Of a DNA stretch of 64,000 nt, positions 3,576 to 60,617 are shown piece by piece. This stretch comes from Nitrosopumilaceae archaeon (GTDB taxonomy: Archaea > Thermoproteota > Nitrososphaeria > Nitrososphaerales > Nitrosopumilaceae), in NCBI GenBank assembly GCA_965209085.1, contig OZ242376.1:672001-736000 (forward strand), given 5' to 3'. The notes under the pieces are model-generated. The model was given only the letters and a program-made list of their open reading frames with translations. It had not been told where the DNA came from and made no database searches. Positions within the stretch are counted from its first letter, which is position 1, and the number at the start of each line of letters is the position of its first letter. The position numbers were made by a program, and so were the translations under genes.

Positions 3576-3626
3576 GAATTAATGTACTATAACTACCATA
3601 TATCATATGATCATTAATAGAGTTTA

Positions 3627-5047
3627 TCCATGCGAATACTTTAAAGATTTCTTGATTTTCGGTGTCATGCGATATGGCTTTCGCTATGTGTCTGTTTCTA
3701 GTCAAAAGATACAAGACATCTATCCATTCGGGATTTAATCCCACAACCATCTTCATCTACATGTTAAAGATTACCGCAGTTATGCCGCCGAGGTAACATC
3801 CCCAAAGTCTAACCCGCGGTTTGTTGCTTTAACTATGATGTATTTCAAATTCACTCCTATCCTTTAGCATACGAAATATGACATCAAGCATCTTGGCCGC
3901 TGCTGCAACTTTGGCCTTGGATGATCCTCTCTTTTTTGCAAGACGCCGGTAAAATTCAGAAATGTTCCTCTCTGATGAAAATTGGACATGAGTGGTATAC
4001 TGCCGCTCATAAATAAATGCAATTTTTGAAGCATGTTAACATTAGGACTAGGCGTGAATAATTGCAGTTACTTTTGAGTGGCAGTATAATAGCTTCCACC
4101 AGTGCTCACCGCATCATCCTACTTCCTCTTTTTGTTATATGTCCGTGATGGACCACATCTCTGAATTGTGAACAGATGGGGCAAGACCAGCATATGATGT
4201 GAGTTGTTTTGGTTCAGAAAACCTCTCAATTCCATCAATTTCTGCTGCCAGTATCAATGAAATAAAATCCACTATGCCAGGTATTGTCTTGAGCAACATT
4301 GCATCCTTGTTTGAACAGGATGCGTTGTGCACCTTTATGTTTGAATCTGCAATTTTTGTATTAACGAATCCAATAGAATCCAAATATCCGTTTATACGAT
4401 AGTCCTTTAGAAAACGCAGTTTTTATTGTATGCAAGCGTAAATGTTACTCCAAAGATCTTTATCCTTCCCTGTAACAAAATTCCATATATTTTGTTTTTT
4501 TAGAGTTGTTCTTGTCTTGACAAGACTGTTGCGATATTGTACAAGTTGCTGTTGTTCCATTATGTCCTTGTTTGAGACATGACAGAGGGATATGTATCTG
4601 CAGCGTAATATGTCTGCAAGTGTTACAGCATCCCTCTTGTCAGTCTTTTTCTTGGATGCGGCGATGATTTTTGTAGCCCAATGATTTGACAATACGACAT
4701 CATAACCCATCTTGTCTGTCATGCATCGATTTAGTCTGTATCATACGGATGAAGATTCCATGACGATTTTTGCATTTTCAGGTACGCTTGATCAGATGAA
4801 TAATCTGATGGACTTGTTTTCATTTTCAATCCTCTCATTAAAAATCACTTTAGCTTTTTTATCCATCATTGCAATTTGGAGAAATTTCTTGTGAACGTCC
4901 ATTCCCACAAACATATCCTTCCCAGAATATGTGGTAATCTGTTTGTTTACATTTGGATCTTTTTTAGATGATTTACGTCTCGGTAATACGGATCGTTTGA
5001 CATTCTGACAACCATCGATGGTCTTAGAATCTTTCTTCACATATGGT
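3627..5047 (-). mobile_element. IS110 family A copy 1 (frameshifted transposase)
   Basis: Ends ACCATATGTG / TTCGCATGGA flanked by TA. ORF pieces 4792-5040, 4423-4722 and 4135-4383 match the intact 373-aa copy at 21763-22884. Confidence 0.9.
3998..4086. mobile_element. 89-bp IS630-derived MITE inside IS110-A1
   Basis: TA duplication, TIRs TACTGCCGCTCA / TGAGTGGCAGTA, and AATTGCAGTTACTTTTG shared with the end of the IS630 at 60618-61733. Confidence 0.8.
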
Positions 5048-5123
5048 TATGCATAATGAGCCAAATTCACAATTTTTACGAATAAAAATGACCGATTTGA
5101 ACGATTATGTATACGATCTTTTG

Positions 5124-10032: not shown

Positions 10033-10081
10033 ATCTGTCAATATCGGTCTAATAATATAATTCTAAATATAATGGACCTTA

Positions 10082-11413
10082 TCCATGTGAATATTTTTTA
10101 AACGTTTCTTGCTTTTTTGTGTCATGCGGTATGGCTTTCGCTATGTGTCTGGTTCCAACCAAAAGATGAAAAGACATTTACCCATTCGGGATTTAATACC
10201 ACAACCATCTTTATCCACATGTTAAAGCTTACCGCAGTTATACAGCCGGGGTAACATCCCCAAAGTCTAACCCGCGGTTTGTTGCTTTAACTATGATGTA
10301 TTTCAAATTCACTCCTATCCTTTAGCATACAAAATATGACATCAAGCATGTTGGCCGCTGCTGCAACTTTGGCCTTGGATGATCCTCTCTTTTTTGCAAG
10401 ACGTCGGTAAAATTCAGAAATGTTACTCTCTGATGCAAATCAGACATGGGTGGTAACAGCTTCCACCAGTGCCCACCGTATCATCCTGCTGCCTCTTTTT
10501 GTTATATGTCCATGATGTACCACATCTGCTGAATTGCGAACCGATGGGGCAAGACTCGCATATGATTTGAGTTGTTTTGGTTCAGAAAACCTCTCATTTT
10601 CATCAATCTCTGCTGCCAGTACCAATGAAATAAAATCACCTATGCCAGGTATTGTCTTGAGCAACATTGCATCCTTGTTTGAACAGGATGCGTTGTGTAC
10701 TTTTATGTTTGAGTCTGCAATTTTTGTATTAACGAATCCAATAGAATCCAAATATCCGTTTATACGGCAATCCTTTAGAGAACGCAGTTTTCTATTGTAT
10801 GCAAGCGTAAATGTTGCTCCAAAGATCTTTATCACTCCCTGTAACAAAATTCCATGTATTTTGTTTTTTAGAGTTGTCCTTGTCTTGATAAGACTCACGA
10901 TATCGTACAAGTTGTCGTTGTTCCACTATGTCCTTGTTTGAGACATGACAGAGGGATATGCATCCACACCGTAATAGGTCTGCAAGTGTTACAGCATCCC
11001 TCTTGTCGGTCTTTTTCTTGGATGCGGCGATGATTTTTGTCGCCCATGGATTTGACAATACGACATCATAACCCATTTTATCTGTCATGTATCGATATAA
11101 TCCGTACCATACGGACGAAGATTCCATTACGATTTTTGCATTTTCAGGTACACTTGATCTGAAGAATCGGCTGATGGACTTGTTTTCATTTTCAATCCTC
11201 TCATTAAAAATCACTTTGGCTTTTTCATCCATCATTGCAATTTGGAGAAATTTCTTGTGAACGTCCATTCCAACAAACATATCCTTCCCAGAATATGTGG
11301 CAATCTGTTTGTTTACATTTGGATCTTTTTTAGATGATTTACGTTTCGGTGATACGGATCGTTTGACATTCTTACAACCATCTGTGGTCTTAGAAGCTCC
11401 CTTCACATATGGT
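10082..11413 (-). mobile_element. IS110 family A copy 2 (frameshift and premature stop)
   Basis: TA cores at 10080-81 and 11414-15. ORFs 10792-11406 and 10440-10910. Confidence 0.92.
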
Positions 11414-11880
11414 TATAACTGATAGAAAAGGTGATGCGCTACAGCTTTCCAGTCTACTAGAGGATGCAAAAAACGTTCTCGGGAAACGACCTGTGCTAAA
11501 CGGGGATGGAAGTTATGATTCAAAGGAGAATTTTAATTATTGTCACAGGCTGGAAGTGGATGCAAGAATTAAAGTTAGCATAAACTCTGGGTTAAATGCT
11601 GGAGGATTTGCACGCAATTCCCCAGTACGGGATCAGCTCGGTGGATGAAAAGATCGCTAACGTATAATGCACATACGCAAAGATGAGATGATACACAATA
11701 GGATCGAGTGGAAAAACGTGTGCATTATGGACGGAGATGGATAACAGAGGTAGTTTTTTCAGCGTTTAAGAAAATCTTTGGTGATTCTGTATACTCTAAG
11801 AAATGGGACAATATTGTCCAGGAGATTCGAATAAAAGTATCAGCATATTGGCTGTTTCTAGTGACGATCTGTATTGATTT
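11414..11880 (+). pseudogene. C-terminal half of an IS5-family transposase (N-half at 15733-16184, opposite strand)
   Basis: ITDRKGDA...GDGSYDS...RWITEVVFSAFKKIFG. Joins in frame to the minus-strand sequence ending at 15733. Confidence 0.75.
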
Positions 11881-14327: not shown

Positions 14328-14399
14328 AGACCGTATGCATAATCGTTCAAATCGGTCATTTTTATTCGTAAAAATTGTGAATTTGGTTCATTATGCATA
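14328..14399. mobile_element. MITE (72 of 78 bp) with IS110-A3 starting in its right TIR
   Basis: AGACCGTATGCATAATCG...CATTATGCA-TA. The missing tip (AGGTCC) lies inverted at 10074-10079. Confidence 0.85.
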
Positions 14400-15730
14400 A
14401 CCATATGTGAATAGAGCTTCTAAGACCACAGATGGTTGTAAGAATGTCAAACGATCCGTATCACCGAAACGTAAATCATCTAAAAAAGATCCAAATGTAA
14501 ACAAACAGATTGCCACATATTCTGGGAAGGATATGTTTGTTGGAATGGACGTTCACAAGAAATTTCTCCAAATTGCAATGATGGATGAAAAAGCCAAAGT
14601 GATTTTTAATGAGAGGATTGAAAATGAAAACAAGTCCATCAGCCGATTCTTCAGATCAAGTGTACCTGAAAATGCAAAAATCGTAATGGAATCTTCGTCC
14701 GTATGGTACGGATTATATCGATACATGACAGATAAAATGGGTTATGATGTCGTATTGTCAAATCCATGGGCGACAAAAATCATCGCCGCATCCAAGAAAA
14801 AGACCGACAAGAGGGATGCTGTAACACTTGCAGACCTATTACGGTGTGGATGCATATCCCTCTGTCATGTCTCAAACAAGGACATAGTGGAACAACGACA
14901 ACTTGTACGATATCGTGAGTCTTATCAAGACAAGGACAACTCTAAAAAACAAAATACATGGAATTTTGTTACAGGGAGTGATAAAGATCTTTGGAGCAAC
15001 ATTTACGCTTGCATACAATAGAAAACTGCGTTCTCTAAAGGATTGCCGTATAAACGGATATTTGGATTCTATTGGATTCGTTAATACAAAAATTGCAGAC
15101 TCAAACATAAAAGTACACAACGCATCCTGTTCAAACAAGGATGCAATGTTGCTCAAGACAATACCTGGCATAGGTGATTTTATTTCATTGGTACTGGCAG
15201 CAGAGATTGATGAAAATGAGAGGTTTTCTGAACCAAAACAACTCAAATCATATGCGAGTCTTGCCCCATCGGTTCGCAATTCAGCAGATGTGGTACATCA
15301 TGGACATATAACAAAAAGAGGCAGCAGGATGATACGGTGGGCACTGGTGGAAGCTGTTACCACCCATGTCTGATTTGCATCAGAGAGTAACATTTCTGAA
15401 TTTTACCGACGTCTTGCAAAAAAGAGAGGATCATCCAAGGCCAAAGTTGCAGCAGCGGCCAAGATGCTGGATATCATATTTCGTATGCTAAAGGATAGGA
15501 GTGAATTTGAAATACATCATCGTTAAAGCAACAAACCGCGAGTTAGAGTTTGGGGATGTTACCCCGTTGCATAACTGCGGTAAGCTTTAACATGTGGATA
15601 AAGATGGTTGTGGGATTAAATCCCGAATGGATAGATGTCTTTTTACCTTTTGACTGGAAACAAACACATAGCGAAAGCCATACCGCATGACACAAAAAAG
15701 CAAGAAACCTTTAAAAAGTATTCACATGGA
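14400..15730 (+). mobile_element. IS110 family A copy 3 (same lesions as copy 2)
   Basis: ACCATATGTG...TTCACATGGA flanked by TA. ORFs 14407-15021 and 14903-15373. Confidence 0.92.
15527..15730 (+). ncRNA. Predicted bridge/seek RNA in the IS110-A3 right end
   Basis: Target loop AGAGTTT-[GGGG ATGTTA CCCC]-GTTGCATA inside stem ACCGCG/TGCGGT. Donor loop ATGGTTG-[GGGAT TAA ATCCC]-ATGGATA. Transcript ends unknown. Confidence 0.7.
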
Positions 15731-15732
15731 TA

Positions 15733-20874: not shown

Positions 20875-21558
20875 AGATGCCTTGCGTAATAAAGAAATTC
20901 GATCATGCAGTCCAAACTTTTAGATCACATCGATCTATTTTCATGCATATTTACGGTGTTTTGTGTTCTCAGAAACGACAATGCGCAAAAAACCGCATGC
21001 ATTCAAGGCGTTTACCGGTCTTACGGTCGAAGAATTTGATTCCTTGATTCCTGGCATACGTAAAAAATATCTTGAATGCCAGCTGGATGTTGCAGATGCA
21101 GCAGAAAGACAACGAAGTCCAGGAGGAGGCAGGAAACATCACTTGTCACTGCCAGATCGGTTAATAATGACGCTTGTTTATTTACGAGAATACCAGTCGT
21201 ATGAAAAAATAGGATACATGTTTGACTTGGATCAAAGTAATGTACAACGAAACATAGGCATGATTCTAAAGATATTGGCAGATATTCTTCCAACTCCACA
21301 TAAACTACACAAACAAGTTTTAGAAATAAAATCTTCCAAAGATCTTGAAAAGAATTTTCCAGACAATTATTGCGTTACAGATGCTACAGAACAACGGGTA
21401 TGGCGTCCAAGTGACAAGGAAGAACAAAAGAAAAACTATTCTGGCAAGCACAAAACACATACTAGAAAAACAACAGAAGTCATAAACGGAAACGGAATGA
21501 TCTTGTATAGCTCAATGTCATATCCTGGCAGTGTACACGATTATGCCATTAGACCGTA

Positions 21559-21762
21559 TCCATGTGAATACTTTTTAAAGGTTTCTTGCTTTTTTGTGTC
21601 ATGCGGTATGGCTTTCGCTATGTGTCTGGTTCCAACCAAAAGATAAAAGACATCTATCCATTCGGGATTTAATCCCACAACCATCTTCATCTACATGTTA
21701 AAGCTTACCGCAGTTATGCAGCCGGGGTAACATCCCCAAAGTCTAACCCGCGGTTTGTTGCT
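21559..21762 (-). ncRNA. Predicted bridge/seek RNA of the intact IS110-A4
   Basis: Target loop AGACTTT / GGCTGCATA and donor loop ATGGTTG / ATGGATA, with the same hairpins as the other copies. Confidence 0.7.
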
Positions 21763-22884
21763 TTAACGATGATGTATTTCAAATTCACTCCTATCCTTTA
21801 GCATACGAAATATGATATCCAGCATCTTGGCCGCTGCTGCAACTTTGGCCTTGGATGATCCTCTCTTTTTTGCAAGACGCCGGTAAAATTCAGAAATGTT
21901 ACTCTCTGATGCAAATCGGACATGTGTGGTAACAGCTTCCACCAATGCCCACCGCATCATCCTGCTGCCTCTTTTTGTTATATGTCCGTGATGGACCACA
22001 TCTGCTGAATTACGAACCGATGGGGCAAGACCCGCATATGATTTGAGTTGTTTTGGTTCAGAAAATCTCTCAACTCCATCAATCTCTGCTGCCAGTATCA
22101 ATGAAATAAAATCACCTATGCCAGGTATTGTCTTGAGCAACATTGCATCCTTGTTTGAACAGGATGCGTTGTGTACCTTTATGTTTGAGTCTGCAATTTT
22201 TGTATTAACGAATCCAATAGAATCCAAATATCCGTTTATACGGTAATCCTTTAGAGAACGCAGTTTTCTATTGTATGTAAGCGTAAATGTTGCTCCAAAG
22301 ATCTTTATCCCTCCCTGTAATAAAATTCCATGTATTTTGTTTTTTAGAGTTGTTCTTGTCTTGACAAGACTGTCGCGATATCGTACAAGTTGCCGTTGTT
22401 CCATTATATCCTTGTTTGAGACATGACAGAGGGATATGTATCCGCATCGTAACAGATCTGCAAGTGTTACAGCATCCCTCTTGTCGGTCTTTTTCTTGGA
22501 TGCGGCGATGATTTTTGTCGCCCATGGATTTGACAATACGACATTATAACCCATTTTATCTGTCATGTATCGATATAGACCGTACCATACGGATGAAGAT
22601 TCCATTACGATTTTTGCATTTTCAGGTACGCTTGATCTGAAGAATCGACTGATGGACTTGTTTTCATTTTCAATCCTCTCATTAAAAATCACTTTGGCTT
22701 TTTTATCCATCATTGCAACTTGAAGAAATTTCTTGTGAACGTCCATTCCAACAAACATATTCTTCCCAGAATATGTGGTAATCTGTTTGTTTGCATTTGG
22801 ATCTTTTTTAGATGATTTACGTTTCGGTGATACGGATCGTTTGACATTCTTACAACCATCTGTGGTCTTAGAAGCTCTCTTCAC
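21763..22884 (-). CDS. IS110-family recombinase (373 aa)
   Basis: DEDD residues GMDVHKK, MESS, KTDKRD. Tnp domain TIPGIG...YAGLAPSVRNSA...GHITKRG. Confidence 0.95.
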   Translation of the reverse strand: MKRASKTTDGCKNVKRSVSPKRKSSKKDPNANKQITTYSGKNMFVGMDVHKKFLQVAMMDKKAKVIFNERIENENKSISRFFRSSVPENAKIVMESSSVWYGLYRYMTDKMGYNVVLSNPWATKIIAASKKKTDKRDAVTLADLLRCGYISLCHVSNKDIMEQRQLVRYRDSLVKTRTTLKNKIHGILLQGGIKIFGATFTLTYNRKLRSLKDYRINGYLDSIGFVNTKIADSNIKVHNASCSNKDAMLLKTIPGIGDFISLILAAEIDGVERFSEPKQLKSYAGLAPSVRNSADVVHHGHITKRGSRMMRWALVEAVTTHVRFASESNISEFYRRLAKKRGSSKAKVAAAAKMLDIIFRMLKDRSEFEIHHR

Positions 22885-23288
22885 ATATGGTTATGCATAA
22901 TCGTTCAAATCGGTCATTTTTATTCGTAAAAATTGTGAATTTGACCCATTATGCATAAAGTCTATTGTGAAAGAGAATCACCCACTGCAGTGTGAAAACA
23001 AAATTACGCAGGATCTGCTGAATTCTGTCTCAAATCTCTATGATAGCGCATATCAGGGAATACATGACGCGTTTCCACAAGCAAATTCGATTATACCCTG
23101 TAAAAAATATAAAAACAAAAAGAGAACCCGTGAACAAATATTTCACAATAAATTACTCTCAAGCGTACGTGTGCGGATAGAACATGTTTACAGCAGAATT
23201 AAGAAATTCAACATACGCCGAGATGTATTCCGATCCCGATTTGATAAATATGATGGAATCGTGCAGGTTGTAAACGGATTAATAAATT

Positions 23289-24643
23289 AGACCTTATGCA
23301 TAATTAACCAAAAAATCAATTTTGACAAATCGAAAGATCTATGATCTAGTATCACATTCGTACAGCATGTGTGCCCCAGACAAGCGTATAATCGCCCAGC
23401 AAACAGAGATGATCTCCAAGCTTGAAGCAGAAATTCAACACTACAAAAAAACGATACATGATAATGAGGTCGAAAAGCAACAATCTGCCTACGAATATTT
23501 GAACCACATAATTGATGATGACAATTATTTGTACGGGACGACTGGAATGAACCGTGAAGAGTTTGAATGGATTCAGGAACGGTTTGAAAAAGTTATCGAA
23601 TATTCGCCCAAGGTCCCCCGCTTTTCAGATTATGTCGACGATCCTGGAAACACCTGTATTCTCACTGCATCTCAAATTTTGTTTGTCACACTGTGCCGCA
23701 AACGCAACAATCCTAAACAGGAATTGCTTGCGGCCATTGCAGGCGTTGATCAGAGCACCATTAGCAGATATCTGACCTTTTCTGATGAATTGTTGATGAA
23801 TATTCTTCCAACGGCTAAGAATATTGGTGCTGCAATACGGACAATACGTACAAGCGAGTTGTTTAAAAAATTCGTACCCGGTAGAGGCGGCGGCGAGCTG
23901 TATCTTGATGCCACGTTTGTACAGGTTCAAAGACCGCAGGAAAACCAAGAGGTAGTATACTCTGGAAAGCGTAAGAGGCACGTCTACAACGTACAGATAA
24001 CCTCAAACAAAGACGGGTTGGTACTTGACATTGGCGGACCTGAAGATGGCTCAGTACATGACATGGAGGTACTGCGGCGTAATCCGCCAAATTTTGGCAA
24101 ATGGACCGATGGCATGAAAAACTCTGATACAAAAAAAGAGCGCCAAATTATGCTATATACTGACAAGGGATATCTGTCCGTGGAAAAAGACTATCGGGGC
24201 ATTATCTCAAAGCAGCCGTACAAAAAACCAAAGGGTAAGGGATTGACAGAGACGGAACGTGAATACAGCAAGAGAATCAGTCGTAAGCGCATAAAAGTAG
24301 AGCATGCCATAAACCGGCTCAAATGGTTCCGCAGAATGAGTGCCGTATATGATGATACAATGGATGCGTTTTATACAGAAATCCAAGTGGTTACAGGACT
24401 GACCAATCTGCACATCATGTTAAAGGATCGCAAGTATATCGAACCGTTGGAAAAAGTTTGCGCTCAAATCAAGTAGCACATCTTTGTGCATACAGTCACG
24501 CATAATATTCTGCTTTTTGTCATGCATATGATATTTTGATTTATTTTGTTGTCTGCTTGAAGGTTTTAGGCCATGTGTACTTTGATCATGACAGCGTCAT
24601 AGTCGGAACCGTATGTCTCAGTGATTGATTATGCATAAGGCCT
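23289..24643 (+). mobile_element. IS5-family element, likely autonomous partner of the 78-bp MITE
   Basis: TIRs AGACCTTATGCATAAT / ATTATGCATAAGGCCT, the same as the MITE TIRs, and ATT duplication (23286-88, 24644-46). Confidence 0.92.
23322..24476 (+). CDS. IS5-family transposase (DDE_Tnp_4 type)
   Basis: LDATFV, YSGKRKRH, GSVHD, YTDKGY, RIKVEHAI. Confidence 0.9.
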   Translation: MTNRKIYDLVSHSYSMCAPDKRIIAQQTEMISKLEAEIQHYKKTIHDNEVEKQQSAYEYLNHIIDDDNYLYGTTGMNREEFEWIQERFEKVIEYSPKVPRFSDYVDDPGNTCILTASQILFVTLCRKRNNPKQELLAAIAGVDQSTISRYLTFSDELLMNILPTAKNIGAAIRTIRTSELFKKFVPGRGGGELYLDATFVQVQRPQENQEVVYSGKRKRHVYNVQITSNKDGLVLDIGGPEDGSVHDMEVLRRNPPNFGKWTDGMKNSDTKKERQIMLYTDKGYLSVEKDYRGIISKQPYKKPKGKGLTETEREYSKRISRKRIKVEHAINRLKWFRRMSAVYDDTMDAFYTEIQVVTGLTNLHIMLKDRKYIEPLEKVCAQIK

Positions 24644-25246: not shown

Positions 25247-25323
25247 AGACTTCATGCATAATGGACCAAATTCACAATTTTTACGAATAAAAATGACTGA
25301 TTTTAATGATTATGCGTAAGGTT
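25247..25323. mobile_element. Empty MITE directly upstream of the giant gene
   Basis: AGT|AGACTTCATGCATAAT...ATTATGCGTAAGGTT|AGT. Confidence 0.85.
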
Positions 25324-56322: not shown

Positions 56323-56590
56323 ATGCTTGATATCATATTTTGTATGCTAAAGGATAGGAGTGAATTTGAAATACATCATAGTTAAAGCAACAACCCGCGG
56401 GTTAGACTTTGGGGATGTTACCCCGGCTGCATAACTGCGGTAAGCTTTAACATGTAGATGAAGATGGTTGTGGGATTAAATCCTGAATGGATAGATGTCT
56501 TTTCATCTTTTGACTGGAAACAGACACATAGTGAAAGCCATACCGCATGACACAAAAAAGCAAGAAACCTTTAAAAAGTATTCACATGGA
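56323..56590 (+). mobile_element. IS110 family A copy 5, right end only
   Basis: MLDIIFCMLKDRSEFEIHHS* plus a complete right end, followed by TA-AACTCT (MITE tip). Confidence 0.88.
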
Positions 56591-56599
56591 TAAACTCTA

Positions 56600-59145: not shown

Positions 59146-60255
59146 TACCTGCAAGCATAAATTCGTTTAAAAATCCACCATTACACAGTAGCAACGTTTT
59201 TTGATCACGACATCGGAACCAATTCATGCAAGTTAGCAATGAGGATCTCCTCCAGGCTTATAATGACTGCAAAGATTCTCGCGTAGAAACAAGACTGCAT
59301 GCGATGTGTCTGGTGCAAATACGCGGCTACGACATACAAGAAACCGCGGATCTCGTATTCCGAACGTACCAGTTTGTACACAAATGGCACGTTCGATACG
59401 AAAAATACGGACTCATAGGCCTGGAGGAAGGGTCCTGATGCGGACGACCGCCAAAGATTTCACCAAATATCATGATGCAGATAGAAAAAAAGTTTACAAA
59501 AATCGGAACCATTACGCTTCCAAAGCAGGTCCGTGATTACATTAAAAATATGACAGGAATAACATATCATATTACGCATATATGCAGACTGATGCGGGAA
59601 TGGAAACTAAAATCAAAGGTACCGCAAAAAATACACGCTAATGCCTGCATCATACGCTGAGTGTTATGCATGGTATAGGCGCATAATGTGCATTATTGCC
59701 CACGAAATGGCAAGAGGGACAAAGATCTTTGTCCAGGATGAGACCATAGTGAGCAGTGATGGTAAACCGACTAAAAAATACTGGTGTAATGAGAATGAAC
59801 GTCCCATCTATACATGGAAGGGGGATCGCAGAAAATTCATAACATACGGAATGATTTCAGTTTCAGGGGAGAAATTTTTTAGATCATACGACAAGTTTGA
59901 TGGTCTGACGTTTTTATGATACATAAAAGATGCAGTAGCAAAATACGGCAGAATACTGGTAATCGTAGACAGAGCCCGGCAGCATAAAACGATAAAGCTT
60001 GAAGAATACATCAAAGAGAACAAGGATAAGATTCAGATAGAACACCTCCCAAGAGCATCACCACAACACAACACCATGGAGACGATCTGGCTTGTCGCCA
60101 AGCAGGATATGGATCATTCAGAATATTATCCCCAACTTGAAGAGAAGAGGGTTAGGTTTATGGAATATCTGCGTACGAGAAAACTGCCGGGTAATGTCAT
60201 TGATTATTTTAAACCAGAGTGGGTTAATTTTTAAACGAATTTATGATCTGGGGTA
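59146..60255 (+). mobile_element. IS630-family element, degenerate
   Basis: TA duplication and TIRs TACCTGCAAGCATAAATTCGTTTAAAA / TTTTAAACGAATTTATGATCTGGGGTA. QDET, DRARQH and SPQHNTMETIW motifs with internal stops. Confidence 0.88.
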
Positions 60256-60410
60256 TACATGCACCAAAAAGTGACATTTCAATATTTTACAAGCGGCTTG
60301 CAAGAAAGAGAGGAAACTCCAAGGCTGCAGTTGCAGCAGCTGGAAAAATGCTAAAGGTGATTTACTGGTTACTAAAGGAGAATCGGGATTTTGAACAAAA
60401 TTACAGTTAG

Positions 60411-60615
60411 TTGCACGACCGCGGCGCAGTATATGGAGATAGTGCTCCGAGATTGTAACTGCGGTAAGCTCTAACAAGTGGATGAAGATGGTTGTGGGGA
60501 TAATGCCCCGAATGGATATATGTCTCTCATTCTTTAATTGGAAAAATAGCCCCTAGTGGATACTGTACAAAAATATGGAAAAACGCAAGGAATACTTAAA
60601 AAAGAGGCACATGGA
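60411..60615 (+). ncRNA. Predicted bridge/seek RNA of IS110-B
   Basis: Same scaffold as family A with compensatory changes (GGAG/CTCC for GGGG/CCCC). Identical donor guides, different target guides (GCAGTATAT / GAGATTGTA). Confidence 0.7.
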
Positions 60616-60617
60616 TA

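What the first reader, a model, noticed from the sequence alone, without database searches (positions are those of the whole stretch)
21551..22963. IS110 family A appears programmed against the TIR of a MITE/IS5 family
Seen: of five A insertions, four sit at the same TA within a MITE TIR in the same orientation, ATTATGCA-TA-[IS]-TA-(CGGTCT / AACTCT / AGGTCC); for copy 5 only the right flank survives. The guides read TGCATA (left target plus core) and AGACTTT, the reverse complement of AAAGTCT, which is the MITE tip at 22957-22963. The same TIR bounds the autonomous IS5 at 23289-24643, and empty MITEs remain at 25247 and 56172. Known precedent: IS4321/IS5075 target Tn21-family TIRs. Inference: an RNA-guided hyperparasite using a proliferating 78-bp MITE as a renewable safe landing pad.
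Basis: partly seen in the sequence, partly recalled or inferred. Interest (0 to 1): 0.85.

Follow-up and report, generated by a model that had tools for sequence, protein, structure and literature searches.

The report
RNA-guided IS that targets transposon ends
An IS110-family insertion sequence in an ammonia-oxidising archaeon carries a guide RNA that matches the terminal repeat of another transposon family, and nearly all of its copies sit inside such repeats.

Summary
Family A has 19 loci. All 17 right-end flanks are the tip of the IS5/MITE terminal inverted repeat (TIR). 11 of 12 left-end flanks are the inner part of that TIR, always in the same orientation. One detail is wrong: in the window three copies, not four, have both flanks in a MITE TIR.

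The element is IS1111-like: a DEDD transposase followed by a 3' non-coding region that folds into two internal-loop modules. The loops of the second module match the element's own joined ends.

Across 17 distinct guide loops from this and related genomes, each element's loops fit its own flanks far better than other elements' flanks. Four copies with a changed guide (AGAGUUU) all sit at the matching TIR variant (AACTCT). A sister IS in a congeneric genome hits the same TIR 6 bp away.

This is a new archaeal member of a known kind (compare IS4321/IS5075). No wet-lab or RNA evidence was available. A possible arms race, TIRs with the core TA changed to TG, is suggestive but unproven.

The parts
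21557..22893 (-). IS110-family (IS1111-like) element 'family A', with a TA at each junction
   Evidence: the element used was cut 7 nt short at the left end; corrected
21763..22758 (-). transposase gene, 331 aa from the ATG (the open frame runs on to a GTG at 22884)
   Evidence: Pfam PF01548 + PF02371. NCBIfam NF033542 'IS110 family RNA-guided transposase', 224.5 bits against a cut-off of 140. Matches ISCro4 and IS621 transposases in the PDB.
21697..21767 (-). target-binding module of the predicted seekRNA/bridge RNA (two stems, an internal loop, an inner hairpin)
21738..21747 (-). 5' side of the loop, GUUAGACUUU: complementary to the top strand right of the core (A-AAGTCTAA)
21714..21723 (-). 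3' side of the loop, GGCUGCAUAA: same sense as the left target plus core (TGCA-TA)
21648..21692 (-). donor-binding module. AUGGUU (21679-21684) is complementary to A-ACCAT of the left end. AUGGAUA (21655-21661) has the same sense as ATGGA-TA of the right end.
21551..21556 (+). outer 6 bp of the MITE TIR, cut off from the rest of the MITE by the IS
22894..22963 (+). rest of the 78-bp MITE. Its far end (22953-22963) is an empty, perfect match to the guides: TGCA-TA-AAGTCT.
23289..24643 (+). autonomous IS5-family element bounded by the same TIR
3625..5049 (-). family A copy in end B of a MITE, itself interrupted by a ~90-bp element of another kind at about 3998-4086
10080..11415 (-). family A copy with the TIR tip on the right flank only
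14398..15732 (+). family A copy with guide variant AGAGUUU, in end B of a MITE
56323..56592 (+). 3' fragment of family A; right flank AACTCTA

Best explanation
Family A is an IS1111-like member of the IS110 family. Its 3' non-coding region encodes a bridge/seek RNA with two modules. [quoted passage not shown] The second module pairs in the same way with the element's own joined ends, ATGGA-TA-ACCAT. The DEDD/Ser recombinase then exchanges strands at the shared TA. The 14-15 bp that the guides specify are the outer part of the TIR of the resident IS5-family elements and their 78-bp MITEs, plus the first base of their target duplication. So the IS lands in either end of these elements, always pointing outward, and splits the TIR 8 bp from its tip.

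Shown here in silico: the positions and orientation of the insertions, the RNA fold with covariation, and the fit between guides and flanks. Inferred from the family: that the RNA is made and bound, a circular intermediate, the strand-exchange chemistry, and any effect on the host element.
For: (1) Insertion sites: all 17 right flanks and 11 of 12 left flanks are TIR, at four different kinds of TIR end, in one orientation.

(2) Fold: RNAalifold on 13 elements from 9 genomes gives two internal-loop modules with 25 pairs, 14 of which have compensatory changes.

(3) Guides: loops were extracted by rule from stored sequences. The 5' loop fits its own right flank at a mean of 5.3 of 7 positions (n=30), against 2.81 of 7 for other elements' flanks (n=702). 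For 17 distinct loops, Mann-Whitney p=1e-10. The 3' loop fits its own left flank at 3.21 of 5 (n=24) against 1.14 of 5 (n=528), p=5e-9.

(4) Within the genome: all 4 copies with the AGAGUUU guide are flanked by AACTCT (7 of 7 matches), against 2 of 9 independent copies with AGACUUU. My hand-computed Fisher test gives p about 0.02.

(5) Donor loop: the G/A in AUGGAUA/AUAGAUA follows ATGGA/ATAGA at the right end in 13 of 13 aligned elements.

(6) Relatives: a sister IS (59% aa identity) in a genome of the same genus sits in the same TIR at a TA 6 bp further in, at all 4 right ends read. Its guides ...UGUGCAUU and ...UAUGCAUU match TGCATAAGG and TGCATACGG. An element of another genus reads ACGCA-TA-CGGTCTAAT with loop GGACGCAUAA.

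(7) Protein: NF033542 scores above its cut-off. The alignment to ISCro4/IS621 shows GMDVHK, VMESSS, KTDKRDA and GLAPSVRNSA at the D, E, D..D and Ser positions. Naming these as the catalytic residues rests partly on the motif given in PMC11187229.

(8) Two copies (99.7% identical in DNA) have open transposase frames.
Against: There is no RNA evidence: no RNA run holds the element. Rfam 15 has no matching family, and the single-sequence fold is only weakly better than shuffles (z -1.87).

Copies with the AGACUUU guide never sit at its perfect target AAGTCT. Their flanks have 1-2 mismatches next to the core (CGG, AGG, TGG, ACC, AAC).

The register of the 5' guide relative to the core differs by 0-2 nt among relatives, and my score allowed for that.

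One left flank is not a TIR.

Some copies could have spread as passengers of a MITE or IS5 rather than by their own insertion: three copies are in near-identical MITE A ends and two in identical IS5 left ends.

The sub-terminal repeats and terminal extensions do not have the 7/3-bp form described for IS1111 (PMC11187229, Introduction).
Confidence: 0.87

Rival explanations
1. Hitch-hiking. The IS entered a TIR once or a few times, and most copies arose because MITE+IS or IS5+IS composites were moved or duplicated. On this reading the enrichment does not reflect repeated targeting.
For: Three copies lie in near-identical MITE A ends and two in identical IS5 left ends. Loci 728323 and 959195 share flanks and are one duplication. 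Each composite examined has its own 3-bp duplication, which fits either order of events.
Against: Insertions occur at four different kinds of end and in at least five distinct MITE B-end variants. The guide sub-lineage tracks the TIR variant. Relatives in other genomes are in TIRs with matching guides. A TIR split 8 bp from its tip is unlikely to remain a substrate for the IS5 transposase (inference).
Confidence: 0.07
2. The protein alone, or DNA structure, recognises the TIR. The complementarity in the non-coding region is then a by-product, for example of sequence captured from past targets.
For: No experiment here shows that the RNA exists. A 2026 preprint reports a structural layer of recognition for ISPpu10 (10.64898/2026.03.19.712850; search listing and abstract only).
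Against: Own-versus-other guide fit at homologous loop positions holds across 17 distinct loops. The stems show compensatory changes while the loops vary. The donor loop covaries with the element's ends. The experimentally shown mechanism in the same protein family is RNA-guided (PMC11208160, PMC11187229).
Confidence: 0.04

Closest known systems
IS4321 / IS5075 (IS1111 group)
   Same: An IS110-family element that inserts in one orientation at a fixed position inside the terminal inverted repeats of another transposon family, Tn21. I saw only the title of Partridge & Hall 2003 in reference lists and a mention in PMC11187229 section 13; the paper itself is not held.
   Different: Bacterial, with a 38-bp Tn3-family TIR as target (recalled). 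Here the host is archaeal, the target is an IS5-family/MITE TIR present in more than 100 ends, guide sub-lineages match TIR variants, and a sister lineage uses a neighbouring TA.
IS1111-type seekRNA elements (ISEc11, ISPa11, ISKpn4, ISPst6)
   Same: The non-coding region lies 3' of the transposase. The top-strand match lies 5' of the bottom-strand match, and the two matches overlap at the crossover. Targets are repeated sequences (REP, attC) (PMC11187229, sections 4, 6, 9, 13 read).
   Different: Protein similarity to solved IS110 members is low (E 8e-9 and 2e-6). The sub-terminal repeats are short with a 2-nt indel, and the terminal extensions are not 7/3 bp. Placement in the IS1111 clade was not tested by a tree.
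IS621 bridge RNA
   Same: Two internal loops, one for the target and one for the donor. Each side pairs with one strand and includes the core (PMC11208160, passages read).
   Different: In IS621 the RNA is in the left end and the guide order is reversed; its core is CT, against TA here.

Membership tests
IS110 family (RNA-guided DEDD transposases) | Transposase with an N-terminal DEDD RuvC-like domain and the C-terminal PF02371 domain | tested here: met
   PF01548 98.2 bits and PF02371 81.3 bits. NF033542 224.5 bits against a cut-off of 140.
IS110 family (RNA-guided DEDD transposases) | Catalytic D, E, D, D and the Ser of the G..P....S(G/A) motif | tested here: met
   In the alignment to ISCro4/IS621, GMDVHK, VMESSS, KTDKRDA and GLAPSVRNSA stand at the aligned positions. 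The motif definition is from PMC11187229 section 6.
IS110 family (RNA-guided DEDD transposases) | Site- and orientation-specific insertion without a true target duplication (a shared core dinucleotide) | tested here: met
   A TA at both junctions and one orientation relative to the TIR in 11 of 12 + 17 of 17 flanks.
IS110 family (RNA-guided DEDD transposases) | A non-coding RNA with target and donor loops that is made and bound by the transposase | not testable with these tools
   The fold and covariation support the RNA. No RNA run is listed.
IS1111 group | The long non-coding region lies downstream of the transposase gene | tested here: met
   About 205 nt between the stop (21763) and the right end (21557), against about 130 nt upstream of the ATG.
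IS1111 group | The top-strand match lies 5' of the bottom-strand match in the RNA | tested here: met
IS1111 group | Sub-terminal inverted repeats of 11-13 bp with 7-bp and 3-bp terminal extensions | tested here: not met
   The ends read TA-A-CCATATGTGAA ... TTCACATGG-A-TA: about 9-11 bp with a 2-nt indel and extensions of 1-3 nt. Repeats are present but not of the described form.
IS1111 group | The transposase branches within the IS1111 clade | not tested
   No ISfinder reference set was available, and the script machine was lost.
IS5 family (the target element) | DDE transposase, terminal inverted repeats, short target duplication | tested here: met
   PF13359 77.1 bits and PF01609. A 16-bp TIR and a 3-bp AWT duplication. 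The NCBIfam IS5 models score below their cut-offs.

The most novel reading that the evidence does not exclude
An arms race between an RNA-guided IS and the transposons it lands in. In this genome, TIR variants whose right half fits the guides mostly carry G instead of A at the second core base (TGCA-TG). That base must match the donor core for strand exchange. None of the TG lineages is seen occupied. In the other direction, the IS has split into guide sub-lineages (AGACUUU and AGAGUUU) that track TIR variants, and in the sister species a related IS has moved to another TA of the same TIR.

Counts: TGCATGARSTCTA occurs 40 times here and 2 times in the congener, which lacks family A. TGCATAARSTCTA occurs 17 and 22 times. 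Among empty TGCA-TA ends, the poorly fitting tips (AGGCCT, CGGTCT, CGCTCT, CGGTTT, CGATCT) number 29 against 17 well-fitting ones. Among TGCA-TG ends the figures are 3 against 39. TG occurs at both ends of a MITE subfamily and both ends of an IS5 subfamily, so at least two independent A-to-G changes are needed.

Caveats: the copies within a subfamily are not independent, so there are only a handful of lineages. Co-evolution of the TIR with its own IS5 transposase, or a chance burst of one subfamily, would give the same counts.
Probability: 0.35. Interest if true: 0.75.

Novelty: new member of a known kind. Interest (0 to 1): 0.55.

Why it matters
The finding gives a natural, archaeal, multi-copy example of bridge/seek-RNA targeting. 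The target is itself a proliferating mobile element, and guide variants, target variants and a shifted sister lineage can all be read off two genomes. This makes two questions testable: how guides are reprogrammed in nature, and whether transposons can escape RNA-guided parasites by changing the core base. It also adds a clade of compact TA-core recombinases with 13 aligned guide RNAs from Nitrosopumilaceae.

Tried and rejected
Rfam 15 scan of 21400-23100: only chance-level hits, no bridge-RNA family.

Sequencing runs: no RNA holder is listed. Contigs of 4 DNA runs were laid. A joint 21547->22964 (skips 1416 = MITE + IS + one ATT) appears in 3 runs of 3 studies, so the host IS5-like gene exists without the composite, though possibly at other copies of that gene. 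No IS-only empty site and no circle junction was listed, which proves nothing with contigs.

Metagenome scan with the transposase: no relative found. Genome-collection scan: one named relative, L001.

I considered that a copy in a 'TG-type' IS5 right end (genome 476692) showed insertion into a TG core. The host IS5 there is a decayed copy whose other end has a TA core, so it shows nothing of the kind.

Inversion between the inverted window copies 10080-11415 and 14398-15732 was considered to explain the odd left flank. It was not resolved.

Rows dropped: L005 (hairpin mis-picked by the rule). L014, A_1642687 and A_675625 could not be parsed.

Papers searched for a prior description: none describing an IS110-family element aimed at a MITE/IS5 TIR in archaea was found in the held library. 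Supplements were not seen; the target tables of PMC11187229 and PMC11208160 may list similar cases.

Full report
What is there. The window is part of a single-contig 1.69 Mb genome of 41% G+C. The only named relative found is a Nitrosopumilus MAG, and relatives occur in 34 of 201 genomes of the same family that were searched. The range given, 21551-22963, is a 78-bp MITE with a 3-bp duplication (ATT). The MITE lies inside an IS5-like gene (frames 20963-21646 and 22967-23290). It is itself split by a 1.33-kb element at 21557-22893. That element encodes, on the minus strand, a 331-aa transposase with PF01548 and PF02371. It is named by NCBIfam as an IS110 family RNA-guided transposase, at 224.5 bits against a cut-off of 140. 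Its nearest solved relatives are the ISCro4 and IS621 transposases. In the IS sense orientation the junctions read ATTATGCA-TA-ACCATATGTGAA ... TTCACATGGA-TA-CGGTCT.

Genome-wide test. BLAST of the element against the genome gives 19 family-A loci: 7 full and uninterrupted, 2 full but interrupted by other elements, 1 internally deleted and 9 fragments.
- All 17 right ends abut a TIR tip followed by A and W-T, the start of the host element's duplication. The tips are CGGTCT, AACTCT, AGGTCT, TGGTCT, ACCTCT, AACTTT, AGGTCC, and ACTCTA in one copy that is a base short. Two of these loci share flanks and count once.
- 11 of 12 left ends abut the inner TIR (..TATGCA-TA): 3 in MITE end A, 5 in MITE end B, 2 in IS5 left ends and 1 in an IS5 right end.
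- The IS always points from the inside of the host element outward.
- The exception is the window copy 10080-11415, whose left flank is unrelated DNA.
- TGCATA occurs 2074 times in the genome, and only 91 of these are followed by NNNTCT.

The RNA. The ~205 nt between the stop codon and the right end fold into two modules of the same plan: an outer stem, an internal loop and an inner hairpin. In module 1 the 5' side of the loop is GUUAGACUUU and the 3' side is GGCUGCAUAA. In module 2 the loop sides contain AUGGUU and AUGGAUA. UGCAUA has the sense of TGCA-TA (left target plus core). UUAGACUUU is complementary to A-AAGTCTAA (second core base, TIR tip, first bases of the duplication). AUGGAUA has the sense of ATGGA-TA (right end plus core), and AUGGUU is complementary to A-ACCAT (core plus left end). 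This is the geometry shown for bridge RNAs, in which each guide includes the core (PMC11208160, passages read). The order, top-strand match first, and the 3' position are those reported for IS1111-type seekRNAs (PMC11187229, sections 4, 6, 9).

Is the fold real? I fetched relatives (41-62% aa identity) from other genomes of the family. RNAalifold on 13 elements gives the same two modules with 25 pairs, 14 of them with compensatory changes. The loop sides are the most variable columns.

Are the loops guides? A script took the loop sides and the flanks from the stored sequences by rule and scored every guide against every flank.
- Own pairs score 5.3 of 7 for the 5' side, against 2.81 of 7 for foreign pairs.
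- Own pairs score 3.21 of 5 for the 3' side, against 1.14 of 5 for foreign pairs.
- Over 17 distinct loops, p = 1e-10 and 5e-9.
- The donor loop follows the element's right end (ATGGA or ATAGA) in 13 of 13 aligned elements.

Within this genome, 4 copies carry AGAGUUU instead of AGACUUU. All 4 sit at AACTCT tips, a perfect 7 of 7. The 9 independent AGACUUU copies sit at xGGTCT (6), AACTCT (2) and ACCTCT (1). Among TA-core ends, tips that break the distal pairing are never occupied: AGGCCT has 9 empty ends, CGCTCT 5, CGGTTT 4 and CGATCT 3. AACTCT, AGGTCT and CGGTCT are occupied (hand tally).

Relatives. In the one other genome of the genus, a sister IS (59% aa identity) sits in the same TIR family at the TA 6 bp further in (..CAA-TA-TGCATAAGGTCTA). 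This holds for all 4 right ends that I read, and its guides follow the AAG/ACG variants. One of its left flanks lies in another IS end rather than in the TIR. An element of another genus reads ACGCA-TA-CGGTCTAAT with a matching loop, but that genome has no intact copy of the motif. A second IS110 family of this genome (60% aa identity; one copy ends at window 60617) abuts the terminus TACTGCGGATCAAAAG.. of yet another repeat at 4 of 4 right ends, with a guide complementary to TA-TACTGCG. Aiming at other mobile elements' ends thus looks like a habit of this clade.

What is not shown. No RNA data exist for the element. Rfam has no model. No circle junction or IS-only empty site was seen in contigs. 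The AGACUUU copies tolerate 1-2 mismatches next to the core and are never at the perfect AAGTCT site. The guide register varies by 0-2 nt among relatives. Some copies may have spread as passengers. Calling the element a hyperparasite is inference from the split TIR. The traffic also goes both ways: an IS5 sits inside one family-A copy, with duplication AAT.

The bolder reading. 45 of 109 empty TIR ends have the core TA changed to TG, and these are almost all the variants whose tip fits the guides. The congener without family A has 2 such ends against 22 with TA, where this genome has 40 against 17. This fits escape by a core mutation. It also fits a burst of one subfamily, or co-evolution of the TIR with the IS5 transposase. 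I give it 0.35.

Verdict. It is a new archaeal member of a known kind (IS1111-type seekRNA elements; a TIR target as for IS4321/IS5075), with an unusually readable record of guide and target variation.

Noticed in passing
window 25359-51206 (+): A single open frame of 8615 aa directly beside the IS cluster. Minus-strand ORFs of similar size recur inside it, which suggests internal repeats.
   Followed up: no
window ~59290-60617 (+); genome 667870, 856437, 1172113: A second IS110-family lineage (60% aa identity) with the same ends. All 4 of its right junctions abut the terminus TACTGCGGATCAAAAGTAACTGCA of another repeat. Empty termini are preceded by TA and unrelated DNA, so only its 5' guide can be specific.
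   Followed up: partly
L034 (genome 544850-546470); also genome 751102 and 919141: A DDE_Tnp_1 IS (368-aa frame, TIR TAGGTCAT..) sits at the same position (TTATG|) of the same IS5/MITE TIR in three places, with an 8-bp duplication. This may be a second element with a taste for this TIR, or one nested unit that was copied.
   Followed up: partly
window 21572-21582 (minus strand); same position in relatives: A conserved A/T box (TTTAAAAA, TTATAAA) about 15 nt inside the right end. It points outward, like an archaeal TATA box. In a circle it would start transcription in the left end, upstream of the transposase gene. This is an inferred archaeal counterpart of the junction promoter described for bacterial IS110/IS1111.
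   Followed up: no
window 22953-22966: The other end of the very MITE that holds the IS is one of only 2 empty perfect matches (TGCA-TA-AAGTCT) in the genome. No MITE has both ends occupied.
   Followed up: no
genome 728323, 794907, 959195: Three family-A fragments are cut off, at two different positions, by the same end of yet another repeat (..GGGTCCACTCCA).
   Followed up: no
window 3998-4086: A ~90-bp MITE-like element with ends TACTGCCACTCAAAAG.. / ..TGAGCGGCAGTA lies inside a family-A copy. It is related to the repeat that the second IS110 lineage targets.
   Followed up: partly
L006, L029 (other genomes): One relative is flanked by a ~29-bp direct repeat of its target region, and another carries a tandem duplication of its last ~50 bp including the right end.
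   Followed up: no
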